Of a stretch of 64,000 bases of DNA, positions 17,120-26,492 are shown one piece after another. The notes beneath the pieces were generated by a model. The model did not search any database, had not been told where the DNA came from, and was given only the letters and a program-made list of their open reading frames with translations. The translations under genes and the position numbers were made by a program. This DNA is from the human T2T-CHM13v2.0 reference genome, Homo sapiens, in the NCBI RefSeq assembly GCF_009914755.1, contig NC_060932.1. The stretch is one strand, 5' to 3'. Numbering within the stretch: position 1 is the stretch's first letter; each line of letters starts with the position of its first letter.

Positions 17120-17133
17120 AAGAAATTTTTTGG
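17120..17133 (+). repeat. Left target-site duplication of the compound L1 insertion (AAGAAATTTTTTGG)
   Basis: Identical 14-mer at 25685-25698, directly after a ~24-nt A run. Bottom-strand site 5'-TTCTT/GA fits L1 endonuclease preference. Confidence 0.9.
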
Positions 17134-18894
17134 GATGGCTGGGTCAAATGGTATTTCTAGTTCTAGATCCCTGAGGAATCGCCACACTGACTTCCACAAT
17201 GGTTGAACTAGTTTACAGTCCCACCAACAGTGTAAAAGTGTTCCTATTTCTCCACATCCTCTCCAGCACCTGTTGTTTCCTGACTTTTTAATGATTGCCA
17301 TTCAAACTGGTGTGAGATGATATCTCATAGTGGTTTTGATTTGCATTTCTCTGATGGCCAGTGATGATGAGCATTTCTTCATGTGTTTTTTGGCTGCATA
17401 AATGTCTTCTTTTGAGAAGTGTCTGTTCATGTCCTTCACCCACTTTTTGATGGGGTTGTTTGTTTTTTTCTTGTAAATTTGTTTCAGTTCATTGTAGATT
17501 CTGGATATTAGCCCTTTGTCAGATGAGTAGGTTGCGAAAATTTTCTCCCATGTTGTAGGTTGCCTGTTCACTCTGATGGTAGTTTCTTTTGCTGTGCAGA
17601 AGCTCTTTAGTTTAATTAGATCCCATTTGTCAATTTTGTCTTTTGTTGCCATTGCTTTTGGTGTTTTGGACATGAAGTCCTTGCCCACGCCTATGTCCTG
17701 AATGGTAATGCCTAGGTTTTCTTCTAGGGTTTTTATGGTTTTAGGTCTAACGTTTAAATCTTTAATCCATCTTGAATTGATTTTTGTATAAGGTGTAAGG
17801 AAGGGATCCAGTTTCAGCTTTCTACATATGGCTAGCCAGTTTTCCCAGCACCATTTATTAAATAGGGAATCCTTTCCCCATTGCTTGTTTTTCTCAGGTT
17901 TGTCAAAGATCAGATAGTTGTAGATATGTGGCATTATTTCTGAGGGCTCTGTTCTGTTCCATTGATCTATATCTCTGTTTTGGTACCAGTACCATGCTGT
18001 TTTGGTTACTGTAGGCTTGTAGTATAGTTTGAAGTCAGGTAGTGTGATGCCTCCAGCTTTGTTCTTTTGGCTTAGGATTGACTTGGCGATGCGGGCTCTT
18101 TTTTGGTTCCATATGAACTTTAAAGTAGTTTTTTCCAATTCTGTGAAGAAAGTCATTGGTAGCTTGATGGGGATGGCATTGAATCTGTAAATTACCTTGG
18201 GCAGTATGGCCATTTTCACGATATTGATTCTTCCTACCCATGAGCATGGAATGTTCTTCCATTTGTTTGTGTCCTCTTTTATTTCCTTGAGCAGTGGTTT
18301 GTAGTTCTCCTTGAAGAGGTCCTTCACATCCCTTGTAAGTTGGATTTACTGGGTATATACCCAAATGACTATAAATCATGCTGCTATAAAGACACATGCA
18401 CACGTATGTTTATTGTGGCACTATTCACAATAGCAAAGACTTGGAACCAACCCAAATGTCCAACAATGATAGACTGGATTAAGAAAATGTGGCACATATA
18501 CACCATGGAATACTATGCAGCCATAAAAAATGATGAGTTCATGTCCTTTGTAGGGACATGGATGAAAGTGGAAACCATCATTCTCAGTAAACTATCGCAA
18601 GAACAAAAAACCAAACACCGCATATTCTCACTCATAGGTGGGAATTGAACAATGAGATCACATGGACACAGGAAGGGGAATATCACACTCTGGGGACTGT
18701 GGTGGGGTCGGGGGAGGGGGGAGGGATAGCATTGGGAGATATACCTAATGCTAGATGACATGTTAGTGGGTGCAGCGCACCAGCATGGCACATGTATACA
18801 TATGTAACTAACCTGCACAATGTGCACATGTACCCTAAAACTTAGAGTATAATAAAAAAAAAAAATTAAAAAAAAAAATAAAAATAAATAAAAA
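17131..18894 (+). mobile_element. L1 #1: 5'-truncated, 5'-inverted (twin-primed) young L1HS/pre-Ta-type element
   Basis: ORF2 3' region on - at 17131-18346, then ORF2 end + 3'UTR + poly(A) on + at 18347-18894. The two pieces are contiguous in consensus (..GCCATCCCA|TTACTGGG..). Diagnostic trinucleotide ATG at 18760-18762 (ACG with CpG decay) and CTTAGAG in the 3'UTR. Confidence 0.93.
17302..18327 (-). pseudogene. Inverted fragment of L1 ORF2p C-terminal region
   Basis: 341-aa ORF (KDLFKENY...RYHLTPV) ends at an AGA>TGA nonsense change. The frame continues as 17113-17301 with the CWWDC motif. Confidence 0.9.
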
Positions 18895-19052
18895 TGAAAT
18901 TACTGTATTGGCTACTACAAAAAAACATGAGTGAATAAACATACACACACACACACACACACATACACACACACACACACACAGAAAGAGAGAGGGGGGC
19001 AGGCGGCATGGGGGCATTTTAAAATATGCTACCCAAGTTAAAAGCTATTTTC
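18895..19052 (+). other. 3'-transduced flank of L1 #1, part 1 (includes a (CA)n microsatellite at ~18940-18983)
   Basis: Unique sequence after the first poly(A) and inside the 17120/25685 TSD pair. Continues at 25644-25662. Confidence 0.8.
19040..19052 (-). repeat. TSD of L1 #2 (AAAAGCTATTTTC), copy adjacent to the poly(A) tail
   Basis: Identical 13-mer at 25631-25643. Pre-insertion site TTTC/AA is an L1 EN-type site. Confidence 0.88.
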
Positions 19053-19278
19053 TTTTTTTTTTTTTTTTTTTTTATTATACTCTAAGTTTTAGGGTACATG
19101 TGCACATTGTGCAGGTTAGTTACATATGTATACATGTGCCATGCTGGTGCGCTGCACCCACTAGCTCGTCATCTAGCATTAGGTATATCTCCCAATGCTA
19201 TCCCTCCCCCCTCCCCCGACCCCACCACAGTCCCCAGAGTGTGATATTCCCCTTCCTGTGTCCATGTGATCTCATTGT

Positions 19279-25090: not shown

Positions 25091-25630
25091 TAAATAGCTG
25101 TTGTTGGCCGAGCATGGTGGCACACGCCTGTAATCTCAGCACTTTCGGAGGCCGAGGCGGGCGGATCACAAGGTCAGGAGATCCAGACTATCCAGGCTAA
25201 CACGGTGTAACCCCGTCTCTAGATCAGCCTTCGCTTGGGCAGGGTCCAGATGCGGAGATGTGAAAAACGTGATGCCACCAGGCCATCATCACATCAAGTT
25301 CCAGTCTGTCCCCCTTCCTCTTCCTCTGGGAACAGCTCCACCAATTTTATGTATGCCTTTAGAGAATCTGCCTTTACAGAACTTGAAGAGCTCTGATGGA
25401 GGAACAGAGATGCTGTGGTGGTAGTGGCCTTGGAGGTGGTGGTAGTGGCAATGGTGATGATGATGATGATGAAAGAAGAAGAAAACGGTGATGGTAAATG
25501 TCATCTGACCAATACTCGGGAGGCTGGTCCCGAGTCCCAGCTACTCGGGAGGCTGAGGCAGGAGGATTGCTTACGGCAACAGCTGTGGCGGCTGCAGCCT
25601 CGAAGGATGCTGCGCTCCAGTCCAGAGCCC
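25091..25630 (-). other. ~540-bp 5' transduction of L1 #2 (apparently spliced upstream transcript)
   Basis: Lies between the L1 5' end and its TSD (25631-25643). GC/CpG-rich start, an Alu fragment, a (CAT/CAC)n tract and an Alu left arm cut exactly at a splice acceptor. Confidence 0.82.
25106..25221 (+). mobile_element. Alu left arm (AluY/Sc-like), antisense to L1 #2, inside the 5' transduction
   Basis: ggccgagcatggtggc...gcggatcacaaggtcaggagatccagact...ccccgtctcta, then an abrupt switch to non-Alu sequence. Confidence 0.9.
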
Positions 25631-25643
25631 AAAAGCTATTTTC

Positions 25644-25686
25644 AAAAGAGATTGATAAATCCAAAAAAAAAAAAAAAAAAAAAAAA
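25644..25686 (+). other. 3'-transduced flank of L1 #1, part 2 (19 nt) plus second poly(A) tail
   Basis: aaaagagattgataaatcc followed by A24 (25663-25686) that overlaps the start of the right TSD. Confidence 0.8.
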
Positions 25687-26492
25687 GAAATTTTTTGGAA
25701 GAAATTTTTATTGTGCTCAGAATAATGATTTCCAGTGTAGATTTTAAAATCAAATCAGATTATGCTTCATGACACTTGACTGTGATTTATGTATTCACAT
25801 AGATAAATTTGAAGGAAAGATATGATAAAGATAGGGTAAGTAAAAAAATGAGCCTTTTGTAGTTCTATGCTAGCATATTTGATTTTATAATATTATCTAG
25901 CAAAATATATACCGTATACAAATAGAAGTAAAATGAGTCTAGGTAATAAATTTAAATGTATGTTATTTCCTATTGTGTACTAATGGACCATACTTATTTT
26001 CTTCCCCTGAGGGAAGGACTCTGATGTCCTACTGAGGTCAAACTCATTAAATCTCATCCGTGTAGAATGTGGAATTTAAAATATTTAAATCCATGTAGAA
26101 TTTAAAATATTTCAGAAACTCTGCTCATTCATTGTAAAACCCACCTTTTGTCAGTATTTTTTTTAGCTTACAGTATAATAATAATAGTTAACTCTATTTT
26201 ATCATTTCATGGACCACAGATATATTCTGGATAAAAGTAACTAAAGTGATCTGCAGGTATTTAAGCATGGTTGGCTCTTGAGGCTCTGTCTTCTGCCCTG
26301 AGATTATCTAATAATGCTAATGTTGACATTTTACCCCAGGTATTTATAAAGGAAAAATAAATTTACTACTCTTAAGACCCACATTTACTAGTTAAGAAAA
26401 ATCAAAAGTAAATTTAAATTGAATATCTAATTAAATAGTATCTTAATTTGTTCATCTCAGCTAGAGAGTAACAAGTATATGTAAAGTGTTTT

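What the first reader, a model, noticed from the sequence alone, without database searches (positions are those of the whole stretch)
17120..25698. Nested 8.55-kb retrotransposition unit: a full-length L1 with its own 5' transduction sits inside the 3' transduction of a twin-primed L1
Seen: two properly nested TSD pairs, outer AAGAAATTTTTTGG (17120/25685) and inner AAAAGCTATTTTC (19040/25631). The outer unit is inverted L1 + poly(A) + ~158 nt unique + [inner unit] + 19 nt unique + second poly(A). Established: twin priming, 3' transduction and 5' transduction are each known TPRT outcomes. Inference: either (a) L1 #2 landed in a ~180-bp transduced target, or (b) one source L1 read through a neighbouring antisense L1 and moved the whole 6.6-kb element as 3'-transduced cargo. 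Model (b) would be one L1 mobilising another intact L1 plus captured exons in a single event. A standard repeat annotation would show only two adjacent L1s and miss this.
Basis: partly seen in the sequence, partly recalled or inferred. Interest (0 to 1): 0.85.

Follow-up and report, generated by a model that had tools for sequence, protein, structure and literature searches.

The report
Two nested L1 insertions, sequential
One jumping gene (L1) landed inside the short piece of chromosome-5 DNA that an earlier, inverted L1 copy had carried to chromosome 8; this was two ordinary events rather than one L1 carrying another, although the inner L1 has five spliced chromosome-15 exons attached to its front end.

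Summary
Both TSD pairs are exact and properly nested.

- **Outer element (17134-18894).** It is a twin-primed L1 with a 3' transduction. The tag (18895-19052 plus 25644-25662) occurs exactly twice in the genome: here, and directly 3' of a full-length L1 at G000:C5:80262845-80268857. The tag begins with that element's own TSD.
- **Order of events.** At the C5 source, AAAAGCTATTTTC occurs once and runs straight into the 19-nt piece, so the site is empty. It argues against model (b), one L1 carrying another as cargo.
- **The "5' transduction".** It is not a plain read-through. It consists of five spliced exons of a C15 minus-strand transcript (30991189 to 30935791), with all four internal junctions GT..AG. 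They join the L1 5' end at an AG|GT donor motif.
- **Source of L1 #2.** CHM13 has no L1 at that C15 site, and no sense-strand L1 in the 200 kb downstream.
- **Known class.** This anatomy matches the exon-L1 chimeras of Law & Burns 2026 (PMC13174262). Their Tables S4 and S5 do not list this locus.

Verdict: an ordinary nested insertion, plus a new member of a known chimera class.

The parts
17120..17133 (+). Outer TSD, 5' copy (AAGAAATTTTTTGG). The last GG is also complementary to L1 positions next to the inverted segment, giving a 2-nt microhomology for the second primer.
17134..18346 (-). L1 #1 inverted segment. It equals positions 4290-5502 of the C5 source L1, with 7 mismatches in 1213 nt, 2 of them at CpG.
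18347..18853 (+). L1 #1 direct segment. It equals C5 source L1 positions about 5506/5507 to 6013. 3-4 nt are missing at the inversion junction. There are 3 mismatches, 2 of them at CpG.
18854..18894 (+). Interrupted A-rich tail, copied from the genomic tail of the C5 source and identical to it.
18895..19039 (+). 3'-transduced tag, part 1. It is C5 flank that starts with the 3' copy of the source L1's own TSD (TGAAATTACTG). The (CA)n is 16 nt longer than at C5.
19040..19052 (+). Inner TSD copy 1 (AAAAGCTATTTTC). It is part of the tag and is single-copy at the C5 source.
19053..19073 (-). Poly(A) tail of L1 #2 (21 T on the + strand).
19074..25090 (-). L1 #2, full length, starting (G)GGAGGAGCC. 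ORF1 is open (338 aa, 23171-24187). ORF2 (19279-23107) is interrupted, in two pieces of 204 and 1010 codons in different frames. The 3'UTR diagnostic site reads GAG.
25091..25218 (-). Extension exon E: antisense-Alu exon, C15:30935791-30935918. On C15 it is followed by GTATTT.
25219..25283 (-). Extension exon D: C15:30976681-30976745.
25284..25352 (-). Extension exon C: C15:30988748-30988816.
25353..25504 (-). Extension exon B: C15:30990393-30990544.
25505..25630 (-). Extension exon A: the first exon, C15:30991062 to about 30991187, lying in CpG-island-like DNA. There is one extra G at its 5' end.
25631..25643 (+). Inner TSD copy 2.
25644..25662 (+). 3'-transduced tag, part 2 (19 nt). It is identical to C5 and directly follows the single AAAAGCTATTTTC there.
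25663..25684 (+). Poly(A) of the outer (L1 #1 plus tag) transcript.
25685..25698 (+). Outer TSD, 3' copy.

Best explanation
Two separate L1 retrotranspositions happened one after the other. Event 1: the full-length L1 at G000:C5:80262845-80268857 (minus strand) was transcribed past its own poly(A) signal and polyadenylated about 161 nt further on. That RNA was inserted on chromosome 8 at TC/AAGAAATTTTTTGG by target-primed reverse transcription with twin priming. The result was an inverted piece (source positions 4290-5502), a direct piece (about 5506 to the end), the source's A-rich tail, the tag, a new poly(A) and a 14-bp TSD. Event 2: a second, full-length L1 RNA was later inserted in the opposite orientation into that tag at AAAAGCTATTTTC, making its own 13-bp TSD. 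That RNA was a chimera. Its capped 5' end was exon 1 of a C15 transcript, followed by four more spliced exons. The fifth exon (an antisense Alu exon) is joined at its splice-donor position to the first bases of the L1. I infer that this junction was made at the RNA level by splicing. Either it was spliced in cis to an L1 allele that CHM13 lacks, or in trans, as Law & Burns 2026 propose for this class. Shown: both sources, the empty C5 site, the exon structure and the junction position. Inferred: the order of events (from nesting plus the empty source), the splicing origin of the exon-L1 junction, and an age of roughly 2-3 Myr for both events (assuming about 1e-9 substitutions per site per year, a recalled rate).
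For: Evidence for event 1 (3' transduction from C5):
- The tag's 42-mer occurs exactly 2 times in the 3.1-Gb genome, at C5 and at C8.
- The full 173-nt probe matches end to end only at those two places among the 40 candidates scored of 189.
- At C5 the tag lies directly 3' of a 6013-nt L1 that has its own TSD, AAAAATGAAATTACTG. The chr8 tag begins with that TSD's 3' copy.
- L1 #1 plus tag differs from C5 at 10 of about 1920 aligned positions, 4 of them at CpG, plus a (CA)n length change.
- C5 continues as AACTCAATT... at the point where chr8 has poly(A).

Evidence for event 2 being separate:
- C5 reads ...AAGTT AAAAGCTATTTTC AAAAGAGATTGATAAATCC, with one copy of the inner TSD and no L1.
- The divergences agree with two recent events. 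L1 #2 has 18 private differences in 6003 columns, against 17 for the C5 source. Its extension differs from the C15 exons at 4 of about 540 positions.

Evidence for the chimera:
- Five colinear C15 blocks align without gaps over 542 nt. All four internal junctions are GT..AG.
- Exon A lies in DNA with GC 0.65-0.66 and CpG o/e 0.67.
- C15 reads TTTAG|GTATTT at the L1 junction. A random junction with 3 placements hits AG|GT only 1.2% of the time, and AG|GTR 0.64%.
- There is no L1 at the C15 site. The 200 kb downstream holds no sense-strand L1, only 4 truncated opposite-strand pieces of 84-96% identity.
- The exons occur nowhere else in the genome.
- Law & Burns 2026 (sections 13 and 20, and part 1 of Table S5 read) describe 17 such insertions. 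Six end exactly at donors, and some have an L1 starting within its first 10 bp and no intronic source L1.
Against: - Only one human haplotype was examined. A C5 allele carrying L1 #2, or a C15 allele carrying an L1, could exist or have existed outside CHM13.
- The extension's divergence from C15 (4 of about 540, 0.74%) is nominally higher than L1 #1's divergence from C5 (10 of about 1920, 0.52%). That is the opposite of what a later event 2 would give, though the counts are too small to tell apart.
- L1 #2 carries GAG at the 3'UTR diagnostic site, which I recall as the older, L1PA2-type state. L1 #1 and its source carry ACG (ATG in L1 #1), which I recall as pre-Ta. So an older-looking subtype sits inside a younger-looking one. 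Overall, though, L1 #2 is as close to the three young copies compared (0.67-0.90%) as they are to each other (0.72-1.12%).
- No splice acceptor is visible at the extreme 5' end of the L1, so the splicing explanation of the junction is incomplete.
- Exon E and its donor are inferred from motifs only; no annotation or RNA data for C15 was available.
- Only a non-canonical GATAAA lies just upstream of the tag's poly(A) site.
Confidence: 0.92

Rival explanations
1. One reading: a single event. L1 #2 with its exon extension first inserted into the flank of the C5 source L1. The C5 L1 then read through it, and the whole 6.8 kb was moved to chromosome 8 as 3'-transduced cargo. The filled C5 allele is absent from CHM13.
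For: It cannot be strictly excluded from one haplotype, because most new insertions are lost by drift. The extension's divergence (0.74%) is not lower than L1 #1's (0.52%). L1 #2 has the older-looking GAG diagnostic (the meaning of the site is recalled).
Against: The C5 source holds a clean, single-copy target with no L1. Model (b) also needs several unlikely steps: transcription through 6.6 kb of antisense L1 (recalled from Han et al. 2004 to cause premature polyadenylation; not checked here), reverse transcription of about 7.3 kb before twin priming, and loss of the filled allele. Model (a) needs none of these. Both models need the same hit in a target of about 177 bp.
Confidence: 0.02
2. 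The 5' extension is a classical read-through 5' transduction. A full-length L1 once sat exactly at C15:30935789-91 in the sense orientation, in an allele absent from CHM13. A C15 transcript spliced into the Alu acceptor 128 nt upstream and ran into that L1. The GT that follows in the empty allele is coincidence.
For: 5' transduction from upstream promoters is an established outcome (recalled). The C15 match runs right up to the L1 with no untemplated bases. A TSD such as AACAACAGCTATTTAGG could be drawn at the site. The source of L1 #2 was not found in CHM13: the nearest of the 27 candidates scored of 11559 are about 0.5-0.7% away.
Against: The junction falls on AG|GTA, which a random junction does only 0.6-1.2% of the time. 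The putative target (CC/AACA) is a poor endonuclease site. CHM13 shows no L1 there. Six of the 17 published cases show the same donor-exact junction without a resident L1.
Confidence: 0.2
3. The exon-L1 junction was made during reverse transcription. After reaching the 5' end of the L1 RNA, ORF2p jumped to the 3' end of a second RNA (a chimeric retrogene of the template-switch type described by Buzdin and colleagues; recalled).
For: No L1 lies in or near the C15 gene in CHM13. The L1 part is complete to within a few bases of its 5' end, so the jump would have been end to end.
Against: The acceptor RNA would have to end exactly at an exon's donor position with no poly(A), which is a rare species such as a free 5'-exon splicing intermediate. 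There are no untemplated bases at the junction. [quoted passage not shown] Template-switch chimeras usually carry 5'-truncated L1 parts.
Confidence: 0.08
4. The outer TSD match is coincidental, and 18895-19052 and 25644-25662 are native chromosome-8 flank.
For: None found. The target is AT-rich, and a partial repeat (AAGAAATTTTT) follows the 3' copy.
Against: The two pieces are contiguous on C5, next to an L1 that is 99.5% identical to L1 #1, and they begin with that L1's own TSD. The 3' TSD copy is preceded by a pure poly(A) at the point where C5 has unrelated sequence. The 14-mer occurs only at the two expected positions in the window.
Confidence: 0.005

Closest known systems
L1 3' transduction combined with twin-priming inversion (Moran 1999; Goodier 2000; Pickeral 2000; Ostertag & Kazazian 2001; all recalled, not read here)
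   Same: L1 3' end plus tail, a unique tag, a second poly(A) and a TSD. The tag maps to the 3' flank of a full-length L1. The inverted 5' piece and the direct 3' piece are adjacent in L1 coordinates, with a 3-4 nt loss and 2-nt microhomology at the primer.
   Different: Nothing essential. The tag was later interrupted by another L1.
Nested (sequential) retrotransposon insertion
   Same: The inner element has its own exact TSD, poly(A) and endonuclease-type site (TT/GAAA). The uninterrupted target exists as a single copy at the source locus.
   Different: The target here is a transduced tag of about 177 bp. This lets the 'empty site' be read from a paralogous locus in the same genome.
mRNA/lncRNA-L1 5' chimeras ending at splice donors (Law & Burns, Cell Genomics 2026, PMC13174262; sections 13 and 20, and Tables S4 parts 8-9 and S5 part 1 read)
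   Same: First exons in sense orientation, spliced. The last exon ends at a GT donor motif. The L1 starts within its first few bases and is full length. One untemplated G sits at the 5' end. TSD, endonuclease-type site and poly(A) flank the whole unit. No source L1 lies in the gene in the assembly.
   Different: This locus is not in their tables: Table S5 has 0 chr8 entries, and Table S4 has no chr8 row between 77 and 123 Mb. It sits inside another recent insertion, which may hide it from an alignment-based caller (inference). The last exon is an exonised antisense Alu. Parts 2-3 of Table S5 and the PDF supplements were not read.
Classical L1 5' transduction (read-through from an upstream promoter)
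   Same: Extra non-L1 sequence lies 5' of a full-length L1, inside the TSD.
   Different: The extra sequence is spliced and comes from five places spread over 55 kb. It is not next to any L1 in CHM13.

Membership tests
L1 3' transduction | Non-L1 sequence lies between the L1's own A-rich tail and a second poly(A), all inside one TSD pair | tested here: met
L1 3' transduction | The tag maps to the immediate 3' flank of a full-length L1 elsewhere, and the offspring L1 matches that element | tested here: met
   The tag occurs 2 times in the genome. At C5 it is next to a 6013-nt L1 with its own TSD. There are 10 mismatches in about 1920 nt.
Twin priming | The 5' inverted and 3' direct segments are adjacent in L1 coordinates, with a small deletion or duplication at the junction, within one TSD pair | tested here: met
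   Inverted 4290-5502, direct from about 5506/7; 3-4 nt lost; GG microhomology with the TSD end.
Nested independent insertion (model a) | The inner element has its own TSD and poly(A), and the uninterrupted target exists | tested here: met
   The single-copy target is present at the C5 source. The empty state at chr8 itself was not testable because only one haplotype was available.
L1 mobilised as 3'-transduced cargo (model b) | The source locus carries the inner L1 at AAAAGCTATTTTC | tested here: not met
   The C5 source is empty in CHM13. Other haplotypes were not testable.
Classical 5' transduction | The extension is contiguous genomic sequence directly upstream of a source L1 | tested here: not met
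   The extension is five spliced blocks. There is no L1 beside block E.
Exon-L1 spliced chimera (Law & Burns 2026) | Sense-oriented first exon(s) of a transcript, spliced together, lie 5' of the L1 | tested here: met
   All four internal junctions are GT..AG. The alignment is gapless over 542 nt. Exon A lies in CpG-island-like DNA. The transcript annotation itself was not available.
Exon-L1 spliced chimera (Law & Burns 2026) | The last exon ends at a splice donor | tested here: met
   C15 reads TTTAG|GTATTT at the junction; chance 0.6-1.2%. This rests on the motif only; use of the donor in real transcripts was not testable.
Exon-L1 spliced chimera (Law & Burns 2026) | Near-full-length L1, with TSD, endonuclease-type site and poly(A) around the whole chimera | tested here: met
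   The L1 is 6017 nt and starts (G)GGAGGAGCC. The TSD is 13 bp at TT/GAAA, with a 21-nt tail.
Exon-L1 spliced chimera (Law & Burns 2026) | No candidate source L1 in the gene's introns | tested here: inconclusive
   None lies at the site or in the 200 kb downstream in CHM13. The gene's extent is unknown and only one haplotype was examined.
Template-switch chimeric retrogene (Buzdin type; recalled) | The junction arises by an RT jump between two RNAs, typically with a 5'-truncated L1 part and no relation to splice sites | tested here: not met
   The L1 part is full length and the junction lies on a donor motif.

The most novel reading that the evidence does not exclude
No L1 ever resided in the C15 gene. 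Instead, the five-exon 5' part and a capped, full-length L1 RNA from elsewhere were joined in trans. This could be trans-splicing, or capture of a free 5'-exon splicing intermediate. The result gave a recent human-lineage L1 a CpG-island first exon as a new 5' end, and this chimera then retrotransposed. The locus would be an uncatalogued, well-preserved case (both sources at least 99.2% identical, exact TSDs) for working out how host exons are grafted onto the extreme 5' end of L1, where no acceptor site exists.
Probability: 0.3. Interest if true: 0.55.

Novelty: new member of a known kind. Interest (0 to 1): 0.3.

Why it matters
The attractive claim, that one L1 moved another intact L1 plus host exons in a single 8.5-kb event, does not hold. 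The source locus is empty, so this is an ordinary nested insertion.

Two things of modest value remain:
- **Parent-offspring pair.** The locus gives a clean L1 parent-offspring pair (C5 to C8). The transduced tag preserves, in the same genome, the pre-insertion sequence of a later insertion.
- **Exon-L1 chimera.** The inner L1 is a well-preserved example that I did not find listed in the parts of Law & Burns's tables that I read. It belongs to their recently described class, in which spliced first exons end at a donor and are fused to the very start of a full-length L1 with no resident L1 in the gene. How that junction forms is still open. A young case with both parental sequences nearly intact helps test it in pangenome and RNA data.

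Tried and rejected
- **Progenitor of L1 #2 via private 5' variants.** A 46-mer carrying two variants hit only this locus and C13:73463869. That element is only 96.9% identical overall and has an ordinary flank, so I rejected it as the source.
- **Genome-wide search with the whole L1 #2.** It scored 27 of 11559 candidates. The best were about 0.5-0.7% away, so no progenitor was identified. The search is not exhaustive.
- **Cis-splicing to a resident downstream L1.** 200 kb downstream of exon E holds only 4 truncated opposite-strand L1 pieces, so this is not supported in CHM13.
- **More relatives for dating.** Only one was obtained, so the private-difference counts rest on four copies.
- **Supplement look-ups by coordinate.** Searches returned nothing because the search cannot match 'chr8:91...'. 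I treat these as uninformative and read the table parts instead.
- **Identity of the C5 source with the '5q14.1-1' source of Nam et al. 2023.** Only one passage was seen, with no coordinates, so this is unverified.
- **Naming the C15 gene.** I could not do this, because no annotation was available for that region.
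Full report
**1. Observation**

- AAGAAATTTTTTGG occurs at 17120 and 25685 and nowhere else in the window, even with one mismatch allowed.
- AAAAGCTATTTTC occurs at 19040 and 25631 only.
- The second copy of the outer repeat is preceded by a pure A run at 25663-25686, of which the last two A belong to the repeat.
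- The first copy of the inner repeat is followed by 21 T, at 19053-19073.
- The unit 17134-25684 is 8551 nt.

**2. The outer element and its tag**

A search of the window's own genome with 18880-19052 gave 42 reported matches (40 candidates scored of 189). Only two covered the whole probe: the window itself and G000:C5:80262662-80262818 on the minus strand. The rest were (CA)n hits. A non-repetitive 42-mer from the tag occurs exactly twice in the 3.1-Gb genome, at those same two places, with up to 3 mismatches allowed.

Read on its minus strand, the C5 locus has:
- an L1 3' end;
- the same interrupted A-rich tail;
- the same flank;
- then AAAAGCTATTTTC once, followed directly by AAAAGAGATTGATAAATCC;
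- then unrelated sequence, AACTCAATT....

The C5 element is 6013 nt up to its final TATAAT and starts GGAGCC. It is flanked by its own TSD, AAAAATGAAATTACTG. The chr8 tag begins with the 3' copy of that TSD, so the tag is native C5 flank. Both reading frames of the C5 element are open in CHM13, at 338 and 1275 aa.

Aligned to C5:
- Window 17134-18346, reverse-complemented, equals source positions 4290-5502 with 7 mismatches in 1213 nt.
- Window 18347 onward equals positions about 5506/5507 to the end, plus tail and tag, with 3 mismatches.
- The (CA)n tract is 16 nt longer on chr8.
- The 19 nt at 25644-25662 are identical to C5.
- In total there are 10 mismatches in about 1920 nt, 4 of them at CpG.

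The two L1 pieces are adjacent in L1 coordinates, with 3-4 nt missing. The GG at the end of the TSD is complementary to the CC within those missing bases. This is the pattern expected of twin priming; the mechanism is recalled from Ostertag & Kazazian 2001.

So the outer element is a twin-primed offspring of the C5 element, carrying a 3' transduction of about 161 nt (now 177 nt).

**3. Which model**

It does not. This supports model (a): L1 #2 landed in the tag after the tag had arrived on chromosome 8.

Model (b) survives only if a filled C5 allele existed and is missing from CHM13. It would also need read-through of 6.6 kb of antisense L1 and about 7.3 kb of reverse transcription before twin priming. 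I give it about 2%.

Two points run against a simple ordering:
- The extension of L1 #2 differs from its C15 source at 4 of about 540 positions (0.74%). L1 #1 differs from C5 at 0.52%. The counts are too small to separate.
- L1 #2 reads GAG at the 3'UTR diagnostic site. The C5 source and the window's third L1 read ACG, and a C3 relative reads ACA. That these mean L1PA2-type, pre-Ta and Ta respectively is recalled, not tested.

Overall, L1 #2 is 0.67-0.90% from those three copies, and they are 0.72-1.12% from each other. It has 18 private differences in 6003 shared columns, against 17, 25 and 15 for the others. All are therefore of similar, recent age. Assuming about 1e-9 substitutions per site per year (a recalled rate), both events fall at very roughly 2-3 Myr.

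**4. The inner element**

L1 #2 (19074-25090, minus strand) is full length.
- ORF1 is open, at 338 aa.
- ORF2 is interrupted, in two pieces of 204 and 1010 codons in different frames.
- Its target reads TT/GAAA in the L1 orientation. Law & Burns score the same cleavage string as an endonuclease motif in rows of their Table S4.

**5. The 5' extension**

Searches with 25094-25643 and 25215-25360 place the extension in five colinear blocks on the C15 minus strand:

| Exon | C15 coordinates |
|---|---|
| A | 30991062-30991189 |
| B | 30990393-30990546 |
| C | 30988747-30988819 |
| D | 30976681-30976746 |
| E | 30935789-30935921 |

- Every internal boundary has GT after the upstream block and AG before the downstream block.
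- The five blocks, trimmed at those sites and joined, align to the window without gaps over 542 nt, with 4 real mismatches, 2 of them at CpG.
- Exon A lies in DNA with GC 0.65-0.66 and CpG o/e 0.67.
- The copy carries one extra G at its 5' end, as in rows of Law & Burns Table S5.
- Exon E is an antisense Alu piece entered at a TAG|AGACGG acceptor.

Immediately after the last base shared with the window, C15 reads GTATTT, so the junction sits on TTTAG|GT. A 2-nt overlap (GG) is shared with the L1 start. In 200 kb of C15, a junction with three allowed placements falls on AG|GT 1.2% of the time, on AG|GTR 0.64%, and on a bare GT 16.6%.

CHM13 has no L1 beside exon E. The 200 kb downstream contains no sense-strand L1, only four truncated opposite-strand fragments of 84-96% identity. 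The exons occur nowhere else in the genome, so this chimera left no further copies in CHM13.

**6. Comparison with what is known**

Law & Burns 2026 (PMC13174262; sections 13 and 20 read) report 17 hg38 insertions with exons of mRNAs or lncRNAs fused 5' of near-full-length L1s.
- Fifteen are in the sense orientation.
- Six end exactly at splice donors.
- Several have the L1 starting within its first 10 bp and no visible acceptor.
- Fifteen of the gene loci have no intronic L1.
- The authors favour cis- or trans-splicing over template switching.

L1 #2 matches each of these features. It is not in their Table S5, which has 0 occurrences of 'chr8' (part 1 of 3 read). It is also not in their Alu-L1 Table S4, where the chr8 rows jump from 77 Mb to 123 Mb. 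The PDF supplements and parts 2-3 of Table S5 were not read. I found no paper describing this particular locus in four text searches, but those searches were by topic, not by coordinate.

**7. Verdict**

- The anatomy is real.
- The exciting single-event reading is not supported.
- The locus is a sequential nested insertion, which is ordinary.
- Its inner element is a new, young member of a recently described class of exon-L1 chimeras, which is of modest interest.

The remaining open question is how exon E's donor end came to be joined to the first bases of an L1 when no L1 is present at that gene in this genome.

Noticed in passing
window 55625-61830: The third full-length L1 in the window (+ strand, about 55640-61686) also carries a 3' transduction. 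After its A-rich tail come about 135 nt of unique sequence, a second poly(A) of 14 A, and AAATGTCAGGCATC, which repeats the 5' flank. ORF1 is open at 338 aa, ORF2 is split into 784 and 461 aa, and the 3'UTR diagnostic site reads ACG. Its source was not searched.
   Followed up: partly
L021 (G000:C5:80262845-80268857, minus strand): The C5 source L1 has both reading frames open in CHM13, at 338 and 1275 aa, and lies in what should be band 5q14.1. Nam et al. 2023 (PMC10191854, one passage seen) name a retrotransposition-competent source '5q14.1-1'. Whether it is the same element was not verified.
   Followed up: partly
window 24258-24826: The RefSeq 'enhancer' feature given with the finding lies wholly inside the 5'UTR of the antisense L1 #2. 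It is L1 promoter-region sequence, not unique DNA (coordinates compared).
   Followed up: no
window 18938-18985 vs L002: The (CA)n tract in the transduced tag is 16 nt longer on chr8 than at the C5 source and carries one CA-to-TA interruption. This is microsatellite change since the copy was made.
   Followed up: yes
L024 (G000:C13:73457900-73463935, minus strand): A full-length L1 on C13 shares two otherwise rare 5'UTR variants with L1 #2; it is the only other exact 46-mer match in the genome. It is only 96.9% identical overall. The shared variants are probably ancestral or recurrent rather than a sign of close kinship.
   Followed up: yes
L011 (G000:C15:30991000-30991700): Exon A of the captured C15 transcript sits in a CpG-island-like stretch, with GC 0.65-0.66 and CpG o/e 0.67. 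Through this chimera, such a promoter-proximal exon was copied to chromosome 8 in front of an L1. Whether it has promoter activity there is unknown.
   Followed up: no
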